A stretch of DNA of 64,000 nucleotides from a virus: the IMG/VR virus record IMGVR_UViG_3300047509_000085, positions 5,620 to 69,619 of that record; one strand, written 5' to 3'. The position numbers and the translations under genes are program-made. Shown piece by piece: positions 7,507-49,260 of the stretch. The stretch's first letter is position 1. Each line of letters starts with the position of its first letter. The notes below the pieces were generated by a model. It ran no database searches and was not told where the DNA came from. It worked only from the letters and a program-made list of their open reading frames with translations.

Positions 7507-7845
7507 TCAATCGTCGGAGTCGGACCCGTCCCGCATCACCAGAAGAAGTCGCAAATAGGCTTCTTGCTGTTGCTCGTTCATTGAGCCGAATAGCTCGTGA
7601 AGCAAAATCTGCTGCTTGTCACGGATCGTCACCTCTCCGGCGGTTGCCGAGGGAGGCAGCAACTCAGTAATCGGCAACTCCAGGGCTTCGCTTAGCTTGA
7701 TCCGGTTCGCGACGGTAATGTTGGTGACGTGGCCATTTTCCCACTGATGAACCGCGCTCCGAGACACCCCGATCAGCCTGCCCAGGGCTTCCAGAGACAG
7801 GCCGCGGAATAGCCTAGCCCGCCTGATTTTAGCGCCTACTTCCAT
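7507..7845 (-). CDS. CI-like XRE/HTH phage repressor
   Basis: IRRARLFRGLSLEALGRLIGVSRSAVHQWENG HTH; divergent from the cro-like gene. Confidence 0.85.
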   Translation of the reverse strand: MEVGAKIRRARLFRGLSLEALGRLIGVSRSAVHQWENGHVTNITVANRIKLSEALELPITELLPPSATAGEVTIRDKQQILLHELFGSMNEQQQEAYLRLLLVMRDGSDSDD

Positions 7846-26210: not shown

Positions 26211-26396
26211 CCCTTGAGGGTGTGCCGACCGACGCGGTGCGGGCTTGTGTCTCGCCTAGGTGGCAAGTCTCACGGACTATACAACCCGCGCATAAATTAT
26301 GCTAGTGTGACCAACGGCTTCTGCACCGCGTCGGTCGGGTAGCCACAACCAGCAACCTTCTCCGCGTCGGTGAGGTGGCAGACTGATCGGTGCGCA

Positions 26397-28763
26397 ATGC
26401 CCGACGGCATGTCTATCAGAAGCCGGCAGCTCAATCATTCGGCGAACCCGCGCGAGGGGTTCGGCATGGGCGCGGCGCCGCCGGGCGGCGAGCCGCTGAC
26501 GGCGGCGACGATTGAGATTGACGACGACGGCGGGGTGACGATCAAGGCGCCGGTGGCGGCGAAGGCGAACCGCCCGAAGCCCGACTCCTTCAGCAAGAAC
26601 CTGGCGATGGAGGAGGACATTGCGCTGGCGTCGCTGGCGGAGGAAATCCTGGCCGGCATTGAGGCGGACCAGCAATCGCGCAAAATGTGGATCGAGAACT
26701 ACAATGACGGCCTCGATCTGCTGGGCCTGACGATTGAGGACGCCAAGAGCACCAAGAGCGGGCCGGCGAGCAAGATTGGGCATCCGCTGTTGTTGGGTGC
26801 TGTCATCAAGGCGCAGTCGGCGGCATCGGCGGAACTGCTGCCATCGGGCGGCCCGTGCAAGATCGCAACGCGGGATGGTGACGACCAGGGCAGCGACGAA
26901 CTGGCGCAGGCGCTGGAGTCGGATCTCAACTGGTACATCACGACGGGCAGCCCGGAGTTCTATCCCAATCTGGATCGTGGGCTGTTCGGGTTGTTTCTGA
27001 ACGGGAACTTGTTTCGCAAGGTCTATGAGCACCCGGTGAAGCGCCGGCCGGTGGCGGAGACGGTCGAGGTATCGGACCTGATCGTATCAGAGGATGCGGA
27101 CGATCTGGAAACTGCGGTGCGGGTGACGCATCGGGCGGAGATGTCGCGGTCGGCTGTGAAGCGGATGCAATGGAAGGGGGTATGGCGGGACATTGATCTC
27201 GCGTATCCGATGCCGATTGCGTCGAGCGAACAGAAGAAGCGCCAAGAGGTGCAGGGCACCACGAGTATCAGCCTGCGCCCGCAGGACATGAGTTACACGA
27301 TATTGGAGACCACGACGGACCTCGATCTATCCGATTACGGGTATGAGGACCCGCACGCGCCGGATGATTTGCCGGTGAGCTACATTGTGACGATCGACAA
27401 GGACAGCCGGCAGGTATTGGACATTCGGCGGGGCTGGAAGGCGGACGACGAGGAGTTTCAGCGCAAGCAGCGTTTCGTGCATTACATGATGATCCCGGCG
27501 CTGGGTTTTCTGTGCCTGGGTCATTTGCACCTGCTGGGCAACCAGACGAAGGCGTTGCGGGCCATCTGGCGCATCCTCGTCACCCTTGGGATGTACGGTT
27601 CGGCCCCGGCCGGTATCAAGGCGAAGAGCCTGCGGATGGGCACGAACGAGATCAACCCGCAGCCGGGTGAGTTCGTGGACATCGACGTGGGTCCGTTCGA
27701 CGACATATCCAAAGCGATCATGCCGTTTCCGTATAAGGACTTGTCGCAGGTGTTCGTGGCGTTTGCGGACAGCATCGGCAAGGAGAGCGGGAACCTGAGC
27801 AGTGCGGCTGATATGCCGGTTGGCGAGTCGCGTGTGGACATTCCGGTCGGCACGATCCTGGCGATGATCGAGCAGGCGACGCAGATGGCGAGCGCCATCC
27901 ATAAGCGGCTGTATCGGGCGCAGGCTAGAGAGCTACAACTCCTCAAAGAATGTTTCGCTGAAAACCCGGAGGCGTTGTGGAAATTGAACCGGAAGCCGGC
28001 GCGGAAGTGGCAGAGTGCCGAGGAGTTTGCTGACACCGACCTGGTGCCGGCGAGCGACCCGAATGTGCCGTCACAGATCCACCGGATCATGCTGGCGACG
28101 GCGATGGTGACGCTGGCGGGGCAGAACCCGGACATCTACGACCGGGTGAAGGTGCATGACCGCGCGTGGAAGAGCATTGGGGTGAATGATGCGGACACGT
28201 TCCTGCATGAGCCGGACCCGAATGCGGGCGGTGGCAAGCCCGGGCCGGCGCCGCCTGATCCGCTGATCGGGCAGGCGCGGATGCTGGAGGCGCAGGCGAA
28301 GATCCAGTCGGCGCAGAACGCGCAGACGGACAGCCAGCGGAAGGCGGCGACGGAGGCGATTGAGGCGCAGCACAGCGGGCAGGCGTTGGCGCAGGAGGGT
28401 CAGACGCGGGCGGCGGAGTTGGCGTCGGAGCGTCAGATCGAGGCGGCGCGTCTGGCGGTGGAGCAGGAGCGGTTGCGGATTGAGCAGGTGCGGGCGGGCG
28501 CGCAGCATGACCTGGCGACACGACAGGCGGCGCACGGTGCGGCGATGGATGTTGCGGGGCACCACCTCGCGGTAGCGCAGCACGGCCTCGACGTGGGGCA
28601 GGCGGCGGCGGAGCACCAGCGGGCGACGGACCAGCAGGAGCAGGACGCGACGAACGCCGAGCGCGAGCACGGGCGGGCGAAAGAGGAGCTCGGGATCAAG
28701 CGGAAGGTTGCGAACAAGCCGGTGCCGAAGCCGGCGGCGGCAAGACCGAGGGCGAAGAAATGA
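26397..28763 (+). CDS. portal protein
   Basis: size, position after terL, podovirus portal motifs (PVGTILAMIEQ...SAIHKRL), C-terminal coiled-coil barrel. Confidence 0.9.
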   Translation: MPDGMSIRSRQLNHSANPREGFGMGAAPPGGEPLTAATIEIDDDGGVTIKAPVAAKANRPKPDSFSKNLAMEEDIALASLAEEILAGIEADQQSRKMWIENYNDGLDLLGLTIEDAKSTKSGPASKIGHPLLLGAVIKAQSAASAELLPSGGPCKIATRDGDDQGSDELAQALESDLNWYITTGSPEFYPNLDRGLFGLFLNGNLFRKVYEHPVKRRPVAETVEVSDLIVSEDADDLETAVRVTHRAEMSRSAVKRMQWKGVWRDIDLAYPMPIASSEQKKRQEVQGTTSISLRPQDMSYTILETTTDLDLSDYGYEDPHAPDDLPVSYIVTIDKDSRQVLDIRRGWKADDEEFQRKQRFVHYMMIPALGFLCLGHLHLLGNQTKALRAIWRILVTLGMYGSAPAGIKAKSLRMGTNEINPQPGEFVDIDVGPFDDISKAIMPFPYKDLSQVFVAFADSIGKESGNLSSAADMPVGESRVDIPVGTILAMIEQATQMASAIHKRLYRAQARELQLLKECFAENPEALWKLNRKPARKWQSAEEFADTDLVPASDPNVPSQIHRIMLATAMVTLAGQNPDIYDRVKVHDRAWKSIGVNDADTFLHEPDPNAGGGKPGPAPPDPLIGQARMLEAQAKIQSAQNAQTDSQRKAATEAIEAQHSGQALAQEGQTRAAELASERQIEAARLAVEQERLRIEQVRAGAQHDLATRQAAHGAAMDVAGHHLAVAQHGLDVGQAAAEHQRATDQQEQDATNAEREHGRAKEELGIKRKVANKPVPKPAAARPRAKK

Positions 28764-30675: not shown

Positions 30676-30918
30676 GTGGCGATCGCGGATGATCTGCGGC
30701 TGAGCTACCGGGATCCGGCACTCTGGAACCGGCTGGGGCCGCGGGTTGCGGCGCATGCGGCGGAGACCTCGGAGGGGATACTGACGCACAAGGCGAAGAC
30801 CTACGAGGACTACCGCGACCAGCTTGGCTACCTGCGGGCGCTGCGCTGGGTGATTGCCGAGGCGCGGGAGATGCAGCGGGCCGACGATGACGGGCGACCA
30901 ATGGGTGAGGACTGCTGA
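30676..30918 (+). CDS. hypothetical protein preceding GroES
   Basis: YEDYRDQLGYLRAL; operon packing. Confidence 0.65.
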   Translation: MAIADDLRLSYRDPALWNRLGPRVAAHAAETSEGILTHKAKTYEDYRDQLGYLRALRWVIAEAREMQRADDDGRPMGEDC

Positions 30919-31322
30919 TGGCGACGGCGATGCAGATGGTACATGCGAAGGACCCGAAGGCCGAGATACTCGACGAGGTGGGGCCGTTCCTGAAGGACGT
31001 GCAGCCGTTGGGGACAGGGGTGCTGATCGGCGTCTACATCCGGCCGAACAAGACGGCCGGCGGCATTATGCTGGTCGATACGGTCGGCGCGCGGCGTGAA
31101 GATGCGTTTCAGGGCAAAACGGCTTTGGTGCTCGCAATGGGCGAGATGGCGTTTACCGAGGATGCGAACCATCGCTGGGGCGGCGTGATCCCGAAGGTGG
31201 GCGACTGGGTGGCGATCAACGTCGGCGATACCTGGGCGTTTGAGTTGGGCAGCCGAAGATGCCGGGTTGTCGAGGACGTTGACGTGAAACTGGTTCTGCA
31301 ACGACCTGACATCGTGTGGTAG
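30918..31322 (+). CDS. groES: GroES/Cpn10-like co-chaperonin
   Basis: QPLGTGVLI...KTAGGIML...VLAMG...KVGDWV. Confidence 0.8.
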   Translation: MATAMQMVHAKDPKAEILDEVGPFLKDVQPLGTGVLIGVYIRPNKTAGGIMLVDTVGARREDAFQGKTALVLAMGEMAFTEDANHRWGGVIPKVGDWVAINVGDTWAFELGSRRCRVVEDVDVKLVLQRPDIVW

Positions 31323-32340: not shown

Positions 32341-33008
32341 TAACCGCGCTCGACCGCGTGACCCGCACGCTGGATCGCACCGGCTCGTGGGCAGCCTGGC
32401 GCATCGATGCGGCGCAGCACGCGGCGATGGTGGTGGAACTGCGGGAACTACGGATGCGCCAGGGGCTGCACGTCATTGAGGAGCCGGACGGTTCCGTGTG
32501 GGTGCAGGGGCGCAGGATCGGGGTGTGGCGGGAGGCTGAATGACGCCCTCTGCAAAGACAGCGCGGGAGTGGTGCACGCTGGAAGCGATCATGGAGCGGC
32601 GCGCGATAGCGGCAACCGCCTGCATGTTCCCGCCGGAACCGCCGCAGCGTTTTCAGGATCGGTTATGGGGGGTGTTTCTGGCGGACATGCCGGAACCGGC
32701 CATGCGGCTTCAGATCAGGCGAGTGCGTGGGCGCATTCGATGGCGTCACAAGAAGCGCCAGTTTTATGCCCGACGCTGACGCGCCCCCCAAGCTCGACGA
32801 CCTGCTCGCGGTCTGCGCGCGGCAGTCGGGGTTACGGGAGCACGCGATGACACCGAGCCACGACACGCTGCGCGCAGCACTGGTGGCGTATCCGGCGCTG
32901 GCGGACGAAGCGCGGCAGCGGCTGGCGACGATCGATGCCAGCGTGCTGCTGCGGGATCACATCAGCCGATGGCTGAAGGCGACATTGGAGGCCACGTTGG
33001 CCGGATGA
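32337..33008 (+). other. three small ORFs (32337-32543, 32540-32779, 32766-33008)
   Basis: overlapping start/stop packing. Confidence 0.45.
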
Positions 33009-33403
33009 AGATCGAGGAACTACCCATCTCGGTTCGGCTACTGAACGCGCTTAGGACGGCAGGGGTGCGGACGACGGATGAGATATGCGCCAGAAGTCGC
33101 ACGGAACTTCTAAGAATACGCAACCTTGGTCGAAAGAGCGCTAACGAGTTGACCGAGGTATTGCAGGAACTTGGATTGAAGCTGGCGGCCGAACCGCTCG
33201 AAGCAGACCCATTGAAGTGGCCGGCATATACGCTCGATCCAAGAGCCGCCGAACGACGAGAGCGTGCCGGCGCCATGCGTCAGCGCGGGATGACGTTCCG
33301 AGAGATCGGAGCAAAGCTGAACGTAAGTACGGGGCGAGCACGCGCGATCGTCGTCAAATACGAACGGTCCCTGCGATATCCCGAGGGAGCAACCAGGACA
33401 TGA
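33005..33403 (+). CDS. RNA polymerase alpha-CTD-like domain fused to a sigma70 region-4-like HTH
   Basis: IEELPISVRLLNALRTAGV...LLRIRNLGRKSANEL; GMTFREIGAKLNVSTGRARAI. Confidence 0.85.
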   Translation: MKIEELPISVRLLNALRTAGVRTTDEICARSRTELLRIRNLGRKSANELTEVLQELGLKLAAEPLEADPLKWPAYTLDPRAAERRERAGAMRQRGMTFREIGAKLNVSTGRARAIVVKYERSLRYPEGATRT

Positions 33404-34341
33404 GCGGCGTAGTAGACGACGACGAGACCGGCACGCAGGGCAACGGCCATGCGGCGGTATCGGACGACGACCTTCGCGAACTGCTGGCGCAGGAAAAGCG
33501 CGCACGGACCACGGCGGAGCAGCGGGCGGCAACGGAGCGCGAAGCCCGCGCCCGGGCCGAACGGGACCGCGACGAAGCCCGCGGCCAGGCGACATCGGCC
33601 ACCGATCAGCGCTGGGTGGCGGAGGAGCAGAGCCTGGAGGCGGGGCTGGCGGCGGCCGAAAGCGAAGCCGAGGCGCTGGAACACCGCATTGCGCAACTGA
33701 ACGCCGACGGCTCGTTTGCCGAGGCGGCCAAGGCGTCGCGGGCGCTGGCGCGGGCCGAGGCGACAATCGGGCTGATCGGGCAGAAGAAGGAATGGCTCGC
33801 CCAGGCCAAGGAGATGGCAAAGCAGCCGCCACCGCCGGAACGGACGGAGCGGCGTGCGGGTCTCGACCTGTCGGGCTACTCGGCCAAGCAGCGCCGCTGG
33901 ATCGAGGATCACCCGGAATACACGCAGATGGACGCGGCCGGCGAGCGGTTCCGCGCCCGAGTCGCTGCGGCGCACTACTCCGCCATGGCTGACAACATCC
34001 CCATCGATTCGGAGGATTACTTCTCTCACATCGAAAGTCAGAGTGCGACGGGATCACGGCGCCAGCGCGAGGTGGATGTTGATGAGGGCGACGATCCGCC
34101 GCCGCGCGTGCAGCGGCGCGATGCTGGCGGAGCATTGCCGGTAACTCGACGCGCTCCTGGTGGCAACGGTGCGAGGTCAGGAGAAGTTAGACTGAGCCCG
34201 GAACAAAGGGAGGCCGCCGATTTTACGATGCCTGATGTTCCGATCGACGATTACGAACTGAATGGCATCCGCCAGCCGGGACGTTATCGAAAGTATGCCC
34301 AGCTTCATGCGAAACTCAAAGGAGAGGGACGCTTGAACTAA
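33400..34341 (+). CDS. capsid scaffolding protein
   Basis: acidic coiled-coil, AAHY...DSEDYF, VRLSPEQREAA; position before capsid genes. Confidence 0.75.
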   Translation: MSGVVDDDETGTQGNGHAAVSDDDLRELLAQEKRARTTAEQRAATEREARARAERDRDEARGQATSATDQRWVAEEQSLEAGLAAAESEAEALEHRIAQLNADGSFAEAAKASRALARAEATIGLIGQKKEWLAQAKEMAKQPPPPERTERRAGLDLSGYSAKQRRWIEDHPEYTQMDAAGERFRARVAAAHYSAMADNIPIDSEDYFSHIESQSATGSRRQREVDVDEGDDPPPRVQRRDAGGALPVTRRAPGGNGARSGEVRLSPEQREAADFTMPDVPIDDYELNGIRQPGRYRKYAQLHAKLKGEGRLN

Positions 34342-34364
34342 TGTATCAGCATGGTAGAGTTGAG

Positions 34365-34482
34365 TCTGTGGTGCGGCGCGGTGCGGTCAGGTTAGGTGAG
34401 GCGCGCTGTGGTGGGGTGAGCCGAGGCATGGTGCGGCAATGTATGGAGAGTGGCGGCAGGGGTTATGCTCTTGCCGCCATTC
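34365..34482 (+). ncRNA. orphan GGY-NN pentamer array with 3' hairpin (putative gapped guide RNA)
   Basis: 15 in-phase pentamers 34370-34444, 12 starting GGC/GGT; hairpin 34448-34482. Confidence 0.8.
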
Positions 34483-34503
34483 GCATTTTAGGAGCTTGAA
34501 CTG

Positions 34504-34965
34504 ATGGCCATCACACTCCAACGCAGCGATCAGCGCAGCGAGCAGAGGCCGAGGCAAAGATTGCAAATCCGCACGCCCGGCAATCGCTTCGACATCGACC
34601 AGAGCCGTATACCGCAGGGGATGGCGTACGAGTGGAAGCGCAAGAACTTCATGGGCGCCGAGGACATCGAGCATCTGGTGAATTTGGATGCGAACGGCTG
34701 GACCGCGGTGCCGGCCGAGCGCCATCCGGAACTGAGCGGCACGCGGTTGCAGTCCGGTTCCGAGATCGTGCGCGGCGGCCTGATGCTGATGGAGCGCCCG
34801 GTCGAGATCACCGAGGAGGCGCGCGAGCTGGACGGCTTCGCGGCGAAGAACGCGGTGGCAAGCCAGGTGCAGCGGCTTGGCCTGAGCGCGCGCACGGTGA
34901 AGGGCGGGATCAAGAGGAGCTACGCTCCGCCGCCAGAGGATGCGATGGTGGCAGAGGATGAATAG
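34504..34965 (+). CDS. conserved head-module protein
   Basis: IPQGMAYEWKR...GWTAVPAERHPEL...GGLMLMERP. Confidence 0.75.
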   Translation: MAITLQRSDQRSEQRPRQRLQIRTPGNRFDIDQSRIPQGMAYEWKRKNFMGAEDIEHLVNLDANGWTAVPAERHPELSGTRLQSGSEIVRGGLMLMERPVEITEEARELDGFAAKNAVASQVQRLGLSARTVKGGIKRSYAPPPEDAMVAEDE

Positions 34966-35306
34966 GGGTATCCTGCGGCCTCGCATGGCGCAGCGTGTTT
35001 CTATGCAGCGTGTACCTGGTTCGGCAGCCCGGCAAGCGTGTCGCATAGGAATGATCGGATGACCTGCTGCCGACTGATTCCGGTGCCTCGCCGCCATGCG
35101 CCTTGCTTTTCCCACGAATACAGCGCGATAGTGCGCCTAGCCGCCCGATCAGATGTAGCGCTCTACCGCTTTCCCTGATCTGAGCCGCCTCCCCGCGTCG
35201 GGGAACATACGGAACCTGGGAGGTGGCACCGCGTCGGTCCACCTCCCGCCAGAACCTCAACCAGAGCCTCGCCGCGTCGGTGGGCCGCACATAGCGGAGC
35301 ACGACG

Positions 35307-35927
35307 ATGGCAGCCAATCCCCTGGCGCCTTCCGGTTTCAGCACTGCCAGGCAATTCGCCGGCGGTGTGCCGAACTACGGCAACCGCGAAGCACGCATTG
35401 CCTACAACTACACCGCCGCCCAGATCGCCTACGGTGATCCGGTCATCCTGTTCACCGACGGGACAATCCGCCTCTACACCAAGGGGCTCACCACCTGCTT
35501 CGGCATCTTCCGCGGCTGCAAGTACCTCAACCCGAACTCCGGGCGAATGGACTGGTTCGCCGGCTGGACCGCGCCCACGCTGCCGTCAACCACGGTGGTC
35601 GAGTGCTCAATCGACGCCGATCCGCTGATGACGCTGCAATGCCAGATGCGCGGCACGGCGCTCACCCAGGCATCGGTCGGGCTGAACGTCGATATCTTCA
35701 CCGGCACGTCCGGCGTCCCGACGCTGGCCCCGGCACTCATCTCCACCTGCGCGCTGGATGGCACCGCAGCCAACACCGCGACGCTGCCGTTCCGGCTGCT
35801 GCGCCTGGTGCCGGCGCCCGTCAACAGCGGGCCGTTTGGCTACAACGAACTGAACGACAACCAAATCTGGGAAGTCGCCATCAACACCAGTCCGAACCCG
35901 ACTGGCACGCGAACCGGCCAGGCATAG
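35307..35927 (+). CDS. putative capsid decoration/cement protein
   Basis: beta-rich, immediately upstream of the MCP. Confidence 0.65.
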   Translation: MAANPLAPSGFSTARQFAGGVPNYGNREARIAYNYTAAQIAYGDPVILFTDGTIRLYTKGLTTCFGIFRGCKYLNPNSGRMDWFAGWTAPTLPSTTVVECSIDADPLMTLQCQMRGTALTQASVGLNVDIFTGTSGVPTLAPALISTCALDGTAANTATLPFRLLRLVPAPVNSGPFGYNELNDNQIWEVAINTSPNPTGTRTGQA

Positions 35928-35939
35928 GGAGCAGCGGAC

Positions 35940-36848
35940 ATGGCAATCAACAGATCCCAAATCCGTGACTTCCTGCTGCCGGGTCTGGCAGACATCGAAG
36001 GCAAGTATCCGCAGATACCCACGCGCTGGCGCGAGTTCCTGGCGACGGGGACGAGTAAGATGGCGCTCGAACGCATCGCCGAGGCCCGCTACACGGGTCT
36101 CGCGCAGCTCAAGAGCGAGGGCAGCGCCACGACGTTCGACAATGCGCCGGGCGAGCGGTTTGTCTGGAACATCGAGCACAAGACCATCGGGCTCGGGTTC
36201 GCGATCACGGCGGAAGCGCTGGAGGACAATCTCTACAAGGACCAGTTCAATCCGCAGAGCATGGGGTTGCTGGAGTCCTTCGCGCAGACCAAGGAGATTT
36301 TGAACCATCAGTTGCTGAACAGCGCCGGCACATTCAATCCACTGTTCGGCGGCGATGGGCAGGCGTTGCTGTCGACTGCGCATCCGATCGACAACGGCAC
36401 CTACGCCAACCGGCCGGCGGTGGACCTGGACTTCAACGAGGCGGCCGTGGAAACCGCGCTGAACCAGATCAGGCAGTTCCCCGATCAGGCTGGGCTGCTG
36501 TCGATGAGCCGCGGGCTAAAGGTCATCGTGCCGCTGGCGCTGCAGTGGCAGGCGGAACGGCTGTTCAAGACAGAACTGCGGGTTGGCACGGCGAACAACG
36601 ATGTGTCGGCGATCCTTTCGTCAGGAGCCTTGCCCGAAGGGTTCGCAGTCAGCGAATTTCTGACGAGCAACTTCAGCTGGTTTATTACCACTAACGTTAA
36701 GGGGTTAGTGTACTACGAACGCGCGGCGTATGAAATGGACCTCCAAGTCGATCCCACAACCGGCAACCTACTCGTTATTGGACGGGAACGATATGGAAGC
36801 GGAATAAAGAACCCTCGCGGAATTTGGGGAACAATGCCGACTTCGTGA
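35940..36848 (+). CDS. major capsid protein
   Basis: MAINRSQIRDFLLPGL...GDGQALLSTAHP...RERYG..PRGIWG, resembling HTVC010P-like podovirus MCPs. Confidence 0.9.
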   Translation: MAINRSQIRDFLLPGLADIEGKYPQIPTRWREFLATGTSKMALERIAEARYTGLAQLKSEGSATTFDNAPGERFVWNIEHKTIGLGFAITAEALEDNLYKDQFNPQSMGLLESFAQTKEILNHQLLNSAGTFNPLFGGDGQALLSTAHPIDNGTYANRPAVDLDFNEAAVETALNQIRQFPDQAGLLSMSRGLKVIVPLALQWQAERLFKTELRVGTANNDVSAILSSGALPEGFAVSEFLTSNFSWFITTNVKGLVYYERAAYEMDLQVDPTTGNLLVIGRERYGSGIKNPRGIWGTMPTS

Positions 36849-46372: not shown

Positions 46373-47448
46373 TGCCGAGCACGAGTCAGGCACAACATCG
46401 GTTCATGGAAGCCATCGCCCACAACTCGGCGTTCGCCAAGAAGGCCGGAGTTCCGCAGCGCGTCGGCAAGGATTTCGCCGCAGCGGACCTGAAGGCAGGC
46501 ATCACCAAGACGCACAACGGCAAGCCGATCAAGCGGGCGGACGGCGGCAGCGTCGACGATCCGAACGCCATCGGCGGCATTGCTCCCACGCAGGCAACCG
46601 CCTCGCCGCAGGTGCAGGACATGATGCAGCGGTTCGCCGGCATGCCCGCCGAGCAACTGCAAGAGGCGGTGATCCGCATGGGGCCGACCTCGCCGATGGG
46701 TGCGCTCGCATCGCGCGTGCTCGCGCAGAAGCGGATGATGCCGACCAGCCAGCAACAGGGATTCGCCAACCCTGGCCAGCGTGGAATGCCGCGCGCACCG
46801 ACACCCGCCGCGCAACCGAACCTGCAACCAGGCGCCACCGCCGAGCAGCAGACCGGCCAGGGGCTCGCCAAGTCGCTCGGGCAGATCATGGGGAACGACA
46901 CGGAGACGCCAGCCACGCAGCCGCAGGGGTTCGCGCTGGGCGGGATGCCCATGATGTCGATGTCGCAGGCCGATCCGCCATGGTCGCGCGGGGCGTCCCG
47001 GTCGATGGGCGCTCCGATGCCGACGCGCGGGTTCCTGGCAGGGCCGACGCCAGGACGCGCCGATGCTATCCGTGGTGCGCCGGCTGTTGGTTCCTACGTG
47101 CTCCCGGCCGATATTGTTTCGCACTTCGGGTCCGGCAGTAGTCTCGCAGGTGCACACGCGCTATCGGCAGCGTTCTCCAGCGGACCCTATGGTACGTCGA
47201 TCCCGCATGGTGGCGGACGTGGGCCGCCTCGCGCACCGGCTCCGTTCCACATGACGCGAGGCGGAGCGACGGACACCGTGCCGGTTGAACTTTCGGATGG
47301 CGAGTACGTCATCCCGCCGGAGATCGTAAGCCAGATCGGGCACGGCGATGTGTCCCGAGGTCACAAAGTGCTCGATAAGTTCGTGGAACATACGCGCAAG
47401 AAACTTATATCGACCTTGAAGAAATTACCGGGACCAGTTCGCTCATGA
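46372..47448 (+). CDS. probable internal virion protein with GG motifs
   Basis: MPSTSQAQHRFM, RADGGSV, GRADAI...YVLPADIVS, LSDGEYVIPPE. Confidence 0.7.
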   Translation: MPSTSQAQHRFMEAIAHNSAFAKKAGVPQRVGKDFAAADLKAGITKTHNGKPIKRADGGSVDDPNAIGGIAPTQATASPQVQDMMQRFAGMPAEQLQEAVIRMGPTSPMGALASRVLAQKRMMPTSQQQGFANPGQRGMPRAPTPAAQPNLQPGATAEQQTGQGLAKSLGQIMGNDTETPATQPQGFALGGMPMMSMSQADPPWSRGASRSMGAPMPTRGFLAGPTPGRADAIRGAPAVGSYVLPADIVSHFGSGSSLAGAHALSAAFSSGPYGTSIPHGGGRGPPRAPAPFHMTRGGATDTVPVELSDGEYVIPPEIVSQIGHGDVSRGHKVLDKFVEHTRKKLISTLKKLPGPVRS

Positions 47449-47984
47449 TCGAAAACCCACAGGGCATCCGCAAGGCTGGCATCCATGATTTGCTGCCGCT
47501 GATCGGATCGGCCTCCATCATCCTTGGCGAAAGTGCGCTGCAAGCGTTGTCGCCAGAGAAAGTCGCGGCCCTGGTACAGAGATGCGTGGAGTTTGATCGC
47601 GCGCTAGCGGGTATCATTTCCGGACCAACAGGCATCGAAGCATCAATCGGTCTTGTGATTGAATCCTTCGATTATAGCGACGAGCAACATCTGAGCGTGA
47701 AGTGGCTCGGGGTTCATCCAGAATTTCAGCGGAAGAATCATGGTGCCACGCTGATGAGCTTCGCCAAGTGGGCGCAGGAAATGGTCGGCGTTCCGTTGTT
47801 CATGGGCCTCTCTACGCTCGAAGCGCTGCAAGCGAAGCTGCACTTGTTCGTAAGAAGCGCGCCGCAGGTCGGAGCGCTGTTCTCTTTCGGAGGAGCGCCG
47901 CACGGGGCGTTTAACCAACGCGCTCCGGGGCATGATCCGTTCATGGAACACAAGAAGTCGCGTGCCAGACCGCAAGCCGCCTAG
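47445..47984 (+). CDS. GNAT-fold acetyltransferase-like protein
   Basis: WLGVHPEFQRKNHGATLMSFAK (motif A). Confidence 0.7.
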   Translation: MIENPQGIRKAGIHDLLPLIGSASIILGESALQALSPEKVAALVQRCVEFDRALAGIISGPTGIEASIGLVIESFDYSDEQHLSVKWLGVHPEFQRKNHGATLMSFAKWAQEMVGVPLFMGLSTLEALQAKLHLFVRSAPQVGALFSFGGAPHGAFNQRAPGHDPFMEHKKSRARPQAA

Positions 47985-48435
47985 CTTCCCGGCCGGCGTT
48001 CGCTTCTGCCAAGAGGGCGATTGCCCAGCGTTGTTCGACATTTTCATGGAAGCGCATCGGCTTGGCGGCTGGATGAACGTCAACGAGGATATTGTCCGTG
48101 ACGTGATTGCCCGCGCGACTAGGCGAGACACATTCGCCATTGCGGTCATTCCTGGGCCAACGTGCGTTGAAGGTGTTATCGCTTTTCAGCCGGTCAGGCA
48201 ATGGTACGGGAACCAAGATAGCTGGTATTGGAGCGAGCTTTTGCTATTTGTCAGGGTAGAATACCGAAAGTCTCGCCATGCTTGGAAGTTGCTGCAATTT
48301 GCTAAATGGTTCCAGCATGCAGTGAATGCGCCGGTGATGGTGTCTCTGATGCCAAAAGAGGATTTTGACAGAAAGGAACGCTTGCTGGGGCGCTTCGGTA
48401 AGCGCGTCGCCAGTAGCTTCCTGATCAATGTGTAA
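47932..48435 (+). CDS. GNAT-fold acetyltransferase-like protein (paralog of 47445)
   Basis: LFVRVEYRKSRHAWKLLQFAK; start uncertain; lower GC. Confidence 0.7.
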   Translation: MIRSWNTRSRVPDRKPPSFPAGVRFCQEGDCPALFDIFMEAHRLGGWMNVNEDIVRDVIARATRRDTFAIAVIPGPTCVEGVIAFQPVRQWYGNQDSWYWSELLLFVRVEYRKSRHAWKLLQFAKWFQHAVNAPVMVSLMPKEDFDRKERLLGRFGKRVASSFLINV

Positions 48436-48438
48436 AGC

Positions 48439-48655
48439 GGAGACGGCTGAGATAGCCGCCTCCTCCCTGCCTTACCGCACCACGGCTCGCCTCGCCCCGG
48501 CTAACCCAGCCTTGGCTTGCCACGCCGGACCTGACCAAGCCCGCCATGCCGCGCCACGCCTCACCATGCCAGTCCTAGCCCGGCCACGCCTCACATTGCC
48601 ATGCCTCGCCTCGCCCAGCCCGGCCTCACCGTGCCTTACCCCGCCTAGCCCTGCC
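48439..48655 (-). ncRNA. GGY-NN pentamer array with 3' hairpin (putative gapped guide RNA array)
   Basis: 37 pentamers plus one 4-nt unit from 48655 to 48467, 32 starting GGC/GGT; 10-bp hairpin 48439-48463; begins just after the stop of the RAMP-like gene. Confidence 0.85.
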
Positions 48656-48657
48656 TG

Positions 48658-49260
48658 TTACGCCACTTTACGCAGAGTTGGCTTCTTCCCAGCCAACTCC
48701 GCCCAACGAACCAAAGCAAAACGCCCAAACGGCCCACCGCGTTCTGGCCGATAGTCGCCAAGTCCTAACCGCTTGCCAGATTCTTCCAGTAACTGATGCA
48801 CCGTGTCGGACTCAATCATTGATAAATCTATGTCGATGTTAATGTCGGCGCCCCACGAATTTAGCCGTGGACGGTGACGCATGATCCTGCCCTTGGTGCT
48901 TGGAATGACCACTGGCCTTGAATCCACTTCAAAAGTGCGTAACGGGTTCCCGTCATCATCAATAAGACTGATTTCCTCATCCAACACGAGCACCGCTGCT
49001 GGGACAACAAACTTGAGGGACTTCCGACTGCCGCGCTGCTTGTGACTGCCGCCGGCCTCACGCAACATCCGAGCTACTGAACTTCCCGGAATAAACAGCG
49101 TTCCGTCTGTTCGCTGATAGGCAACTTTTGTCGCTTCCTCGCGCGGATCGCCACGTTTGATGTGGATGGCTCGCGTTGTTTCTTCGACCTCTGATGCCTC
49201 CGCCCAGCGGTGCATCAGCATTGCCGACGTGCCGGATATACTAGCTACGAAAATTGCCAT
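48658..49260 (-). CDS. stand-alone RAMP/Cas7-like RNA-binding protein (Vipr-like)
   Basis: N-terminal strand ISGTSAMLMH, LFIPGSSVARMLREA, C-terminal Gly-rich loop GLGDYRPERGGPFGRF; RBS upstream of ATG 49260; 200 aa. Confidence 0.8.
   Translation of the reverse strand: MAIFVASISGTSAMLMHRWAEASEVEETTRAIHIKRGDPREEATKVAYQRTDGTLFIPGSSVARMLREAGGSHKQRGSRKSLKFVVPAAVLVLDEEISLIDDDGNPLRTFEVDSRPVVIPSTKGRIMRHRPRLNSWGADINIDIDLSMIESDTVHQLLEESGKRLGLGDYRPERGGPFGRFALVRWAELAGKKPTLRKVA

What the first reader, a model, noticed from the sequence alone, without database searches (positions are those of the whole stretch)
33961..34482. Second, orphan GGY-NN array 14 kb away independently encodes its own neighbour, the scaffold gene
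Seen: just after the scaffold stop, (TCTGT) GGTGC GGCGC GGTGC GGTCA GGTTA GGTGA GGCGC GCTGT GGTGG GGTGA GCCGA GGCAT GGTGC GGCAA TGTAT, then a long hairpin (34448-34482). NN = GT GC GC GC CA TA GA GC GT GG GA GA AT. The scaffold at 33961-33999 reads GTc GCt GCg GCg CAc TAc TCc GCc ATg GCt GAc AAc ATc (VAAAHYSAMADNI): the first 6 match consecutively, 9/13 in total, 21/26 nt. The code, sense-strand polarity, wobble skipping and 3' hairpin are the same as in the array at 48.5 kb, so the rule is replicated within one genome. Inference: a trans-acting guide for the RAMP protein, directed at an allele like VAAAHY(D/E)AVG(D/E)(D/E)I. Each guide sits beside the resistant allele it favours, like a homing-type drive.
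Basis: partly seen in the sequence, partly recalled or inferred. Interest (0 to 1): 0.93.

Follow-up and report, generated by a model that had tools for sequence, protein, structure and literature searches.

The report
Detached VIPR guide RNA beside its target
This five-base repeat is a stand-alone guide-RNA gene of the phage's VIPR system, a CRISPR-like DNA silencer published in 2026, and it spells the neighbouring head-assembly gene as related rival phages write it, so it is a real but already known kind of element with an interesting layout.

Summary
Window 34370-34439 (+) holds 14 GGYNN units, 12 of them strict GGY. A 16-pair hairpin follows at 34448-34482.

Read two bases in three, the variable dinucleotides match the neighbouring gene at 33961 in 21 of 26 bases. 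No other position on either strand of the window reaches 21.

The system is already in print. Three 2026 bioRxiv preprints describe VIPR: a Cas7-like Vipr protein plus GGY/NN vrRNAs that read double-stranded DNA with a one-base skip at the codon wobble position.

The phage (69.6 kb, terminal repeats) encodes a Vipr-like protein at 49260-48658. Its fold model matches CRISPR Csm chains.

Three loci from related, syntenic phages lack the array. Their allele, VAAAHYDAAAEGI, matches the guide at 23/26 (25/28 with a 14th unit); 0 of 500 shuffled guides reach this on the two loci tested. In the whole viral collection, a 20-base gapped pattern from the guide hits only that site.

The guide is therefore most likely aimed at rivals' scaffold-like gene. 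The resident copy scores lower by only 2-3 bases.

In my survey of 199 other loci, 7 of 50 solitary arrays had such a near-match within 1 kb. The reversed control gave 0 and shuffles averaged 0.3.

Expression and loading onto Vipr are untested. This scan has noted the same layout before on other DNA.

Verdict: new member of a known kind.

The parts
33400..34341 (+). 313-aa scaffold-like gene. It is the resident homologue of the guide's predicted target. The function is inferred from position only.
   Evidence: ORF, with an ATG at 33400 that overlaps the stop of the upstream ORF. No Pfam or PHROG family. 8 homologue clusters including itself. Lies between portal (26370-28763) and major capsid (35940-36848).
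33961..33999 (+). Resident near-target site: codons V188-I200 (VAAAHYSAMADNI), read by the guide at codon positions 1-2.
   Evidence: 21/26 bases and 9/13 pairs match. It is the best site on either strand of the window. 4 of 500 shuffled guides do as well anywhere in the window.
34365..34444 (+). Repeat tract of the vrRNA. A leading TCTGT supplies the first NN. Then come 14 GGYNN units (34370-34439) and a degenerate TGTAT.
   Evidence: 12 of 14 units are strict GGY. The phased pattern is enriched 18 against 0.54 expected.
34445..34493 (+). 3' tail: GGAGA, a 16-pair hairpin at 34448-34482, then ATTCGCATTTT. It could serve as the vrRNA tail, as a terminator of the scaffold-gene transcript, or both.
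   Evidence: -31 kcal/mol, z = -3.2. The simple terminator scan did not flag it.
48658..49260 (-). vipr: 200-aa Cas7-like RAMP protein, the presumed partner of the guide, 14 kb away.
   Evidence: phrog_4652, E = 5e-15. 1435 homologues, none with a Pfam domain among the best 120 listed. AlphaFold model with pLDDT 86 and pTM 0.80. Best Foldseek matches are chains of type III-A Csm and type VII CRISPR complexes, E = 1.3e-6, with 104 matches at E <= 0.001.
48467..48655 (-). Main vrRNA array: 37 five-base units plus one 4-base unit that shifts the register. It starts 2 bases after the vipr stop.
   Evidence: 32 of 37 units are strict GGY.
48439..48463 (-). Hairpin that closes the main array.
   Evidence: 10-pair stem; the 76-nt stretch folds at -35.2 kcal/mol, z = -2.5.

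Best explanation
The tract at 34365-34493 is a single guide-RNA gene (vrRNA) of the phage's VIPR system. It is detached from the vipr gene by 14 kb and sits in the 3' flank of a scaffold-like head gene.

Mechanism, by analogy with the published systems and inferred here, not shown:
1. The RNA is made as the tail of the scaffold-gene transcript or from its own start.
2. One Vipr protomer binds each GGY.
3. The filament presents the 13-14 NN dinucleotides.
4. These pair with the template strand of double-stranded DNA, skipping every third base (the codon wobble).
5. An R-loop triplex forms and blocks transcription.

The sequence it spells is the conserved block VAAAHY(D/E)A... of the scaffold-like gene as related, syntenic phages carry it. 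It is therefore most likely a weapon against co-infecting relatives. The phage's own copy is mismatched at 5 of 26 read bases, including both bases of unit 7, and may thereby be spared.

Keeping the guide next to the resident allele would stop recombination from separating weapon and immunity.
For: Form:
- 14 GGYNN units plus a hairpin tail. This fits the published 9-16 repeats followed by a structured tail.

Partner:
- A Cas7-like protein is encoded in the same genome, with an array directly after its stop.
- The two arrays are the only ones in the genome.
- The best local alignment of array 1's last 36 bases elsewhere in the window is a tie between the 3' end of array 2 and one unrelated site. 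These are 2 distinct places (3 of 1273 overlapping chunks, two of them over array 2's 3' end), so this is weak support for a shared handle.

Target:
- The resident site is the window-wide best match.
- Loci L131, L133 and L134 from related phages match at the homologous site. L131 and L133 are syntenic: terminase 47-49%, portal 64%, capsid 88% amino-acid identity.
- Their match is 23/26, or 25/28 with a 14th unit. It is by far the best hit in each locus (next best 19-20).
- 0 of 500 shuffled guides reach this on L131 or L133.
- A 20-base gapped pattern (units 1-8, 11 and 13) has exactly one hit in the whole viral collection, and it is that site.
- 3 of the 7 non-resident homologue clusters are inferred to match at 23/26, against 21/26 for the resident.
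- L131 and L133 lack the array; a 43-codon ORF fills the slot.

Generality (the window itself was left out of these counts):
- In 199 other loci with 698 distinct array runs, 11 runs have a near-match (score at least 12) within 1 kb. The reversed-order control gives 1; 30 shuffles give 3.2 +/- 1.9, maximum 9. Distant hits show no excess: 20 observed, 18 reversed, 15.1 shuffled.
- Among solitary arrays, 7 of 50 have such a near-match. The reversed control gives 0; 100 shuffles give a mean of 0.3 and a maximum of 3. Clustered arrays give 4 of 648.

Mechanism from the literature:
- Preprints 10.64898/2026.04.26.720920 and 10.64898/2026.04.26.720927 (Results read).
- Solo vrRNAs, and self-match scores lower than non-self scores, in 10.64898/2026.10.15.759431 (sections 7-9 read).
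Against: - The margin between rival and resident alleles is only 2-3 read bases.
- If all 16 possible units are counted, the rivals score 25/32 = 0.78. That is below the preprints' 0.8 cut-off.
- With 13 units the resident itself scores 0.81, above that cut-off.
- Unit 10 of the guide (GG) mismatches an alanine codon invariant in all 8 homologue clusters, so no sampled allele is a perfect target.
- Clusters P0125 and P0127 (20/26) and P0128 (15/26) are inferred to match worse than the resident.
- An exact search for units 5-13 found only a chance hit in a non-coding repeat.
- Tail similarity to array 2 is weak.
- The two arrays differ in GGT/GGC use: 8:4 against 8:24, p = 0.016. So loading by the resident Vipr is not assured.
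- My first survey, with fixed 10-unit frames, showed no excess of near-self matches (418 frames; real, reversed and shuffled distributions alike).
- The 'solitary' class was defined after I had seen the first hits.
- For the one other solitary case with a homologue at hand (L187), the homologue matched 23/30 and the resident 24/30.
- A silenced scaffold gene might be complemented in trans by the resident protein during co-infection.
- The gene's function as a scaffold is not established.
Confidence: 0.68

Rival explanations
1. Self-regulation. The guide acts on the phage's own scaffold-like gene. The imperfect match (21/26, first six pairs perfect) gives tuned feedback repression of the very transcript that carries the guide in its 3' end.
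For: - The resident site is the best match in the whole window.
- It scores 0.81 with 13 units, above the preprints' 0.8 cut-off.
- The guide lies directly downstream of that gene on the same strand.
- In 5 of 8 solitary cases (this window included), the near-match lies in the gene just upstream on the same strand.
Against: - Rival alleles match better. Selection for self-pairing should give the best match to self.
- Unit 7 is mismatched at both bases.
- Both preprints that checked reported no self-targets at 0.8 or above, or self scores lower than non-self scores.
Confidence: 0.12
2. A genuine vrRNA whose resemblance to the neighbour is coincidental or a relic. Its real target lies elsewhere (host, satellite, unrelated phage), or the guide has decayed.
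For: - No perfect target was found in any collection.
- Unit 10 fits no known allele.
- 4 of 500 shuffled guides do as well somewhere in the window.
- The fixed-frame survey was negative.
Against: - The best site falls in the adjacent gene, about 1% of the search space.
- The same holds for the second array and its neighbour: best hit at 48184, score 13.0 against 12.0 for the next.
- Rival homologues score 23-25, with 0 of 500 shuffles reaching that.
- The only hit of the 20-base pattern in the viral collection is the homologous site.
- Solitary arrays show the excess: 7 of 50 against 0.3 expected.
Confidence: 0.1
3. A guide for someone else's protein. The RNA is loaded by the Vipr of a rival phage and turns it on the rival's own head gene, or it acts as a decoy that soaks up rival Vipr. 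This is what the October 2026 preprint describes for satellites and VIPR-null phages.
For: - Solo vrRNAs that redirect a foreign Vipr are described experimentally in 10.64898/2026.10.15.759431 (section 7 read).
- The tail of array 1 resembles that of array 2 only loosely.
- Its GGT/GGC use differs from array 2.
Against: - The phage has its own vipr.
- The rival record that could be searched (22.7 kb, estimated 34% complete) shows no vipr and no array, though it is a fragment.
- Both arrays share GGTGCGGYAA, then GGAGR and GGCGGC, at the start of the tail.
Confidence: 0.07
4. Not an RNA guide at all. Either the 52-codon ORF at 34341-34499 is a small protein gene, or the tract is a DNA-level repeat such as a G-quadruplex run or a protein-binding site.
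For: An ORF does span the tract. GG runs every five bases could in principle stack.
Against: - A five-base period is incompatible with codon structure.
- The same unit is found next to Vipr-like genes in many phage contigs: at least 120 pattern hits, 48 of them with a Vipr homologue by tblastn. In addition, 189 Vipr relatives were found, and in most of the 40 of the 80 fetched loci that I printed, arrays lie directly beside the gene.
- Rfam holds no family for it, which says nothing either way.
Confidence: 0.03

Closest known systems
VIPR systems (Vipr RAMP protein + vrRNA +/- vap), type examples Escherichia phage SUSP1 and a Pseudomonas fulva prophage; bioRxiv 10.64898/2026.04.26.720920 and 10.64898/2026.04.26.720927
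   Same: - GGY/NN five-base repeats, 9-16 per guide, followed by a structured 3' tail.
- A roughly 20-kD Cas7-like protein encoded by the phage.
- NN dinucleotides match the target with one skipped base that falls on the codon wobble position.
- Targets lie in rival mobile elements.
- No match at 0.8 or above to self, unless only 13 units are counted.
   Different: - The guide lies 14 kb from vipr. That is outside the 20-kb windows centred on vipr that the preprint examined.
- No accessory vap gene was recognised next to vipr here; the neighbours are two GNAT-like ORFs.
- The tail is a plain hairpin, not the pseudoknot described for the SUSP1 clade.
- The Vipr shares no detectable sequence similarity with any record of the phage collection beyond 32% identity. 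SUSP1 was not among the 11 hits.
- The VIPR type could not be assigned, because the supplements are closed.
Solo / orphan vrRNAs of F5 satellites and VIPR-null SUSP1-like phages; bioRxiv 10.64898/2026.10.15.759431
   Same: - A vrRNA standing without vipr beside it.
- A self-match score lower than the match to rivals.
- Wobble-aligned targeting of a conserved coding block.
   Different: - Those elements lack vipr altogether, and the solo guides sit where vipr-vap1 was deleted or in a satellite. Here the genome keeps vipr and the guide is dispersed into the head-gene module.
- Their predicted targets are vipr, other vrRNAs, satellites or host REP elements. Here the target is a structural gene of related phages, whose resident homologue is the guide's immediate neighbour.
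- The words allele, homing and orphan/distal do not occur in the relevant senses in the main texts I searched. The supplements were not visible.
Free-standing homing endonuclease genes of T4-like phages (seg/mob genes); recalled from general knowledge, no call
   Same: A selfish cassette lies next to the gene that it attacks in cassette-less relatives. The resident copy is protected by sequence differences, so weapon and immunity are inherited together.
   Different: No nuclease is known here. Published VIPRs of this kind repress transcription. Copying of the cassette into the rival by repair has not been shown. The resemblance is one of layout only.
Class 1 CRISPR crRNA-Cas7 filaments (type III Csm3)
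   Same: A RAMP fold. One protomer per RNA repeat, with periodic flipped bases (from the preprint).
   Different: - No CRISPR repeats, cas1/cas2 or spacers.
- The period is 5 with 2 read bases, instead of 6 with 5.
- The target is double-stranded DNA, without a PAM.

Membership tests
VIPR vrRNA | Tandem five-base units with conserved GGY and variable NN, 9-16 units per guide | tested here: met
   14 units at 34370-34439, 12 of them strict GGY. The phased pattern occurs 18 times against 0.54 expected.
VIPR vrRNA | Structured 3' tail, conserved among the vrRNAs of one system | tested here: inconclusive
   A stable hairpin is present in both arrays. Both show GGTGCGGYAA, GGAGR and GGCGGC at the junction. 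In a window-wide local alignment, however, the 3' end of array 2 only ties with an unrelated site.
VIPR vrRNA | A Vipr (minimal RAMP) gene in the same element | tested here: met
   49260-48658 (-). The model has pLDDT 86. Best Foldseek matches are Csm and type VII complex chains, E = 1.3e-6. An array starts 2 bases after its stop. That the matched chains are the Cas7 subunits is recalled, not stated by the tool.
VIPR vrRNA | NN dinucleotides match a natural target under the 1-nt skip rule at 0.8 or above, with skips on the codon wobble position | tested here: met
   L131, L133 and L134 match at 23/26 (0.88), 25/28 (0.89) or 23/28 (0.82), depending on the frame. The matches are in codon register, and 0 of 500 shuffles reach them on L131 or L133. 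With 16 units the score is 0.78, below the cut-off.
VIPR vrRNA | Expressed as a small RNA that co-purifies with Vipr | not testable with these tools
   No RNA run is listed for this DNA. This needs small-RNA sequencing and a pull-down.
VIPR system (whole locus) | Accessory vap gene beside vipr | tested here: inconclusive
   Only two GNAT-like ORFs (47445-47984, 47932-48435) lie beside the array, convergent with vipr. The vap families are defined in supplements that I could not open. The preprint also says loci 'typically', not always, include vap.
Solo vrRNA in the sense of 10.64898/2026.10.15.759431 | The element carrying the vrRNA lacks vipr and vap (VIPR-null) | tested here: not met
   The same 69.6-kb genome carries vipr. 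The guide is detached, not orphaned.
CRISPR array | Identical direct repeats of 20-40 bases separated by unique spacers, with cas genes | tested here: not met
   Tandem Repeats Finder reports no array at 34.3-34.5 kb, and at 48.5 kb only weak 10- to 35-base periods that are all multiples of 5. Rfam gives no match.

The most novel reading that the evidence does not exclude
Detached vrRNAs are not scattered at random. They are kept within a few hundred bases of the phage's own mismatched copy of the sequence they attack in relatives. This forms a two-part 'weapon plus immunity allele' cassette.

A rival that escapes silencing by recombining in the resident allele would acquire the guide along with it. 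The cassette would then spread like a homing element, but without a nuclease.

This would also explain why single guides leave the vipr locus and colonise conserved core genes. I did not find the layout in the main texts of the three VIPR preprints (word searches; supplements not visible). Earlier notes of this scan report it in several other genomes.
Probability: 0.35. Interest if true: 0.7.

Novelty: new member of a known kind. Interest (0 to 1): 0.42.

Why it matters
The finding shows that the published VIPR code can be read straight off an uncultured soil phage. It names a concrete predicted target: a conserved block of a head-assembly gene in sister phages.

It adds two points that the preprints' main texts do not cover, as far as my searches go. 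First, a VIPR-bearing phage can park a single guide 14 kb from vipr, beyond the 20-kb windows used to define the systems. Published guide counts and target maps may therefore be incomplete. Second, solitary guides tend to sit next to the resident near-copy of their target (7 of 50, against 0.3 expected). This suggests selection for linkage between weapon and immunity.

If that holds, VIPR guides would behave as selfish, recombining cassettes. That bears on how guide repertoires evolve without a Cas1-like acquisition machine.

Tried and rejected
Before the literature search I considered three other readings: an RNA track for a ring or filament protein (triplet plus 2-base spacer, as in TRAP), G-quadruplex runs, and a Rho-loading site on the opposite strand. 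All were dropped once the VIPR preprints and the Cas7-like fold fitted.

Searches that gave nothing useful:
- Rfam at gathering thresholds: 0 matches in the window.
- Promoter and terminator scan of 33000-36000: 0 promoters and 0 terminators, so the hairpin is not flagged by that rule.
- The search for related loci with the scaffold-like protein alone in viral contigs: 10 pattern hits, none a relative. With the alignment: 2 loci in viral contigs, 2 in metagenome contigs, 0 in genome contigs.
- L132 and L134 are cut. L132 stops before the target site.
- Exact gapped search for guide units 5-13 in viral contigs: one locus, a non-coding repeat, so a chance hit.
- The 20-base pattern in genome contigs: one hit, in a 709-codon open frame of a Kiloniellales MAG (..SRVAAAHYEAHQEQM..). 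It scores 21/26 and none of the free units fits. About one chance hit is my own rough expectation for 596 billion bases.
- Array 2 guides against L131-L134: nothing at score 10.5 or above.

Sequencing runs. No RNA holder is listed. I laid 4 DNA runs. Only X1, which may be the source of this DNA, covers the array. X2-X4 gave short low-depth pieces, none over 34354-34459. Nothing can be said from that.

Surveys. The first one, with fixed non-overlapping 10-unit frames (418 frames from the 120 pattern-hit loci plus the window itself), showed no excess of near-self matches over reversed or shuffled guides. The excess appears only with local scoring and when distance to the array is taken into account. 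From then on, identical arrays were counted once. L001-L010 (copies of the window) and L131-L135 were left out, and the window itself was left out.

Other solitary guides. For L187, an exact search of units 1-11 in viral contigs gave 0 hits. Its one homologue at hand (L180) matched 23/30, against 24/30 for the resident. For the remaining solitary cases, the held loci contained either no homologue or only a poorly matching one: L045 and L081 are each other's homologues, at 15/28 and 16/30.

Tail comparison: tied with an unrelated site.

The genome search on the rival records: L133's record is not held. L131's record is a 22.7-kb fragment without vipr or array.

Their data files (target lists, type tables, solo-vrRNA tables) may already contain this clade, detached guides or the linked layout.
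Full report
WHAT IS THERE

The window is bases 5620-69619 of a 69,619-base IMG/VR virus record with direct terminal repeats.

Directly after the stop of a 313-codon gene (33400-34341, +) the plus strand reads TCTGT. Then come 14 five-base units at 34370-34439: GGTGC GGCGC GGTGC GGTCA GGTTA GGTGA GGCGC GCTGT GGTGG GGTGA GCCGA GGCAT GGTGC GGCAA. After that come TGTAT and GGAGA, a 16-pair hairpin at 34448-34482, and ATTCGCATTTT.

Twelve of the 14 units are strict GGY.

Four phased GGYNN units occur 18 times in the window, against 0.54 expected (largest 4 in 100 shuffles). All 18 fall in this tract (4) or in a second, longer tract on the minus strand at 48655-48467 (14). No other place in the window has 6 or more GGY in ten phased units. 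A six-unit pattern finds nothing else in the whole genome.

The second tract has 37 units plus one four-base unit. It begins two bases after the stop of a 200-codon gene (49260-48658, -) and also ends in a hairpin.

Take the last two bases of each unit and lay them on DNA with one base skipped. The 13 dinucleotides GT GC GC GC CA TA GA GC GT GG GA GA AT then match 33961-33999 of the neighbouring gene (codons VAAAHYSAMADNI) at 21 of 26 bases and 9 of 13 pairs. The first six pairs match in a row, and the skipped base falls on the wobble position.

I expected this to be numerology, and it is not:
- The site is the only position on either strand of the 64-kb window that reaches 21; the next best is 20.
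- 0 of 2000 order-permuted guides reach 21 in the gene.
- 4 of 500 shuffled guides reach 21 anywhere in the window.
- With an ungapped local score the site ranks first: 13.5, then 11.5 and 10.0.
- The same scan with the distal part of the second array puts its window-wide best hit (13.0; next 12.0) in that array's own neighbour, the convergent GNAT-like gene at 48184.

IT IS A KNOWN SYSTEM

A full-text search for 'pentanucleotide repeat', 'phage' and 'noncoding RNA' returned bioRxiv 10.64898/2026.04.26.720920, dated 2026-06-25. I read its Results, Discussion and four Methods sections. It describes VIPR as follows:
- a roughly 20-kD RAMP protein (Vipr);
- vrRNAs of 9-16 YNNGG repeats with a structured 3' tail;
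- recognition of double-stranded DNA by the NN dinucleotides with a one-base skip that mostly falls on the codon wobble position;
- either strand can be targeted, with no PAM;
- the effect is transcriptional repression;
- natural targets lie in rival phages, satellites and prophages, called at 0.8 NN identity or above;
- no self hits reach that level.

A companion preprint (10.64898/2026.04.26.720927; Results part 1 read) gives cryo-EM structures. One protomer binds per repeat, the GGY is sequestered, and the NN pair with the target strand inside an R-loop triplex.

A third preprint (10.64898/2026.10.15.759431; abstract and sections 7-9 read) describes solo or orphan vrRNAs in satellites and in phages that have lost vipr. 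It notes that some guides score lower on self than on rivals.

A search for 'vrRNA' or 'Vipr' found these three preprints plus one language-model paper that mentions vrRNA once.

THE PARTNER PROTEIN

The 200-residue protein matches phrog_4652, function unknown, at E = 5e-15. It has 1435 homologues at E <= 0.001. None of the best 120 listed has a Pfam domain, and any source name is 'hypothetical protein'.

A model built from a 38-sequence alignment has mean pLDDT 86 and pTM 0.80. Foldseek against the PDB returns chains of type III-A Csm complexes and type VII complexes at the top (best E = 1.3e-6; 104 matches at E <= 0.001).

Of these, 48 of 120 show a homologue of this protein by tblastn. A profile search found 189 relatives. 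Of the 80 loci fetched from it I printed 40, and in most of them arrays lie directly before and/or after the gene on its strand.

WHAT THE GUIDE IS AIMED AT

The scaffold-like protein has only 7 other homologue clusters. I could fetch DNA for one allele type, from three contigs (L131, L133, L134).

L131 and L133 are collinear relatives of this phage. Amino-acid identities are terminase 47-49%, portal 64%, scaffold-like 52-54% and major capsid 88%.

At the homologous site they read VAAAHYDAAAEGI. They match the guide as follows:

| Units counted | Rival alleles | Resident allele |
|---|---|---|
| 14 (YNNGG frame) | 25/28 | 22/28 |
| 14 (strict GGYNN frame) | 23/28 | 21/28 |
| 16 (all possible) | 25/32 | 23/32 |

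In each locus this is the best hit by a wide margin (next best 19-20). On L131 and L133, the two loci tested, 0 of 500 shuffled guides reach it.

The wobble bases differ among the three contigs while the read bases stay the same.

A 20-base gapped pattern (units 1-8, 11 and 13) has exactly one hit in the 2.9 million viral contigs, and it is L131's site.

From the protein alignment, 3 of 7 non-resident clusters are inferred to match at 23/26. One is at 21-22, two at 20 and one at 15. The resident, at 21, is therefore mid-range rather than the worst.

Unit 10 of the guide (GG) faces an alanine codon that is invariant in all eight clusters. No sampled allele is perfect. An exact search for units 5-13 found only a chance hit.

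The relatives L131 and L133 have no array after the gene. A 43-codon ORF fills the slot, followed by the homologue of the window's next gene.

IS THE GUIDE-BESIDE-TARGET LAYOUT GENERAL?

I scored every in-register array run in 199 other loci against its own locus. These were 120 loci from the pattern scan and 79 from the Vipr profile scan. Identical arrays were counted once, which left 698 runs.

A first test with fixed ten-unit frames was negative. It covered only the 120 pattern-scan loci plus the window, 418 frames in all.

With local scoring and distance, the counts of runs with a hit scoring at least 12 are:

| Set | Observed | Reversed-order control | Shuffled guides |
|---|---|---|---|
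| All runs, hit within 1 kb | 11 | 1 | 3.2 +/- 1.9 (max 9 of 30) |
| All runs, hit beyond 1.5 kb | 20 | 18 | 15.1 |
| Solitary arrays, hit within 1 kb | 7 of 50 | 0 | mean 0.3, max 3 (100 shuffles) |
| Clustered runs, hit within 1 kb | 4 of 648 | 1 | not run |

Solitary arrays were defined as 11-18 units with no other array within 300 bases.

I drew the solitary class after seeing the first hits, so the size of that effect needs an independent repeat. Most of the near-matches lie in long open frames in codon register. In 5 of 8 solitary cases, this window included, the near-match is in the gene just upstream on the same strand.

Their full-length identities are 0.63-0.80. That is below or at the preprints' cut-off, which would explain why a 0.8 self-target filter does not see them.

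Earlier notes of this scan report the same layout in several other genomes. I treat those as leads, not as evidence.

MECHANISM AND WHAT REMAINS INFERRED

Shown here:
- the form of the array;
- the Cas7-like partner in the same genome;
- the codon-phased match to the neighbour, and the better match to sister alleles.

Taken from the preprints:
- filament assembly;
- gapped pairing;
- repression.

Inferred:
- that this RNA is made, and that the resident Vipr loads it;
- that 23-25 matched bases suffice for silencing while 21-22 do not;
- that silencing a rival's scaffold-like gene pays off during co-infection, although the resident protein might complement it.

The tail gives only weak support for a common handle. 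The two arrays share GGTGCGGYAA, then GGAGR and GGCGGC, at the junction, but a window-wide alignment ties with an unrelated site. The arrays also differ in GGT/GGC use.

No RNA data exist for this DNA.

COMPARISON AND VERDICT

The tract meets the sequence-level criteria of a VIPR vrRNA. It is not a 'solo' vrRNA in the published sense, because the genome keeps vipr.

Two things are new relative to the main texts I read:
- The guide lies 14 kb from vipr, while the defining survey used 20-kb windows centred on vipr.
- The guide stands next to the resident near-copy of its target.

The words orphan, distal and allele are absent from the first preprint. Homing is absent from the third, and linkage and neighbo* occur there only in unrelated senses. 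The supplements were closed.

I file the finding as a new member of a known kind, with a modestly supported and potentially interesting layout.

DNA for four further allele types could therefore not be fetched.

Noticed in passing
window 48184-48210 (+) and array 48541-48467 (-): The distal 15 units of the main array have their window-wide best NN-skip hit in the convergent GNAT-like gene next door. The score is 13.0 (next 12.0, at 7515), with 16/18 bases matched over 9 units, in codon register. This is the same layout as for array 1. The low GC content of this neighbourhood is a possible confounder.
   Followed up: partly
window 48655-48467 (-): The main array has 37 five-base units and one four-base unit (GGCG) that shifts the register. 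No internal tail is visible, so it may be a 'staggered' multi-guide array. It uses GGC 24 : GGT 8, whereas array 1 uses GGC 4 : GGT 8 (Fisher p = 0.016).
   Followed up: partly
L136 9560-10005: In a relative (Vipr 62% identical), the spacer between two arrays upstream of vipr contains a tRNA-like T-arm and acceptor piece (GGTTCGACTCC). This suggests guide processing by tRNA-maturing enzymes. An earlier scan note (e1-5841719) reports mini-tRNA tails elsewhere.
   Followed up: no
L013 560-1280 (-): Five modules, each of about 16 GGYNN units followed by the same ~52-base structured spacer. They sit between a vipr-like gene and a RuvC-like gene. The repeat-and-spacer look resembles CRISPR, but with the roles inverted.
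   Followed up: no
window 32969-33403 (+): A 144-codon ORF just upstream of the scaffold-like gene carries an RNA polymerase alpha C-terminal domain (PF03118, E = 3e-17) and a sigma-70 region-4-like helix-turn-helix. This is an unusual phage transcription factor candidate. The relatives L131 and L133 keep only part of this region.
   Followed up: no
window 30918-31322 (+): GroES-like co-chaperonin gene (phrog_3188, E = 3e-6) inside the head module.
   Followed up: no
L131 9333-9560 and L133 10912-11140: Sister phages carry a 43-codon ORF (MQDDYARAQAMEMAL...) in the slot where this phage has the guide. The slot is a swap site for small cargo.
   Followed up: partly
window 34341-34499 (+): A 52-codon ORF spans the whole guide tract. 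It is most likely a by-product of the G-rich repeat, not a gene.
   Followed up: no
L216 5606-5643 (-): A Kiloniellales MAG contig holds a 709-codon open frame with ..SRVAAAHYEAHQEQM.. that matches 10 chosen guide units exactly but none of the others. It is probably chance. A distant relative of the same conserved block is not excluded.
   Followed up: partly
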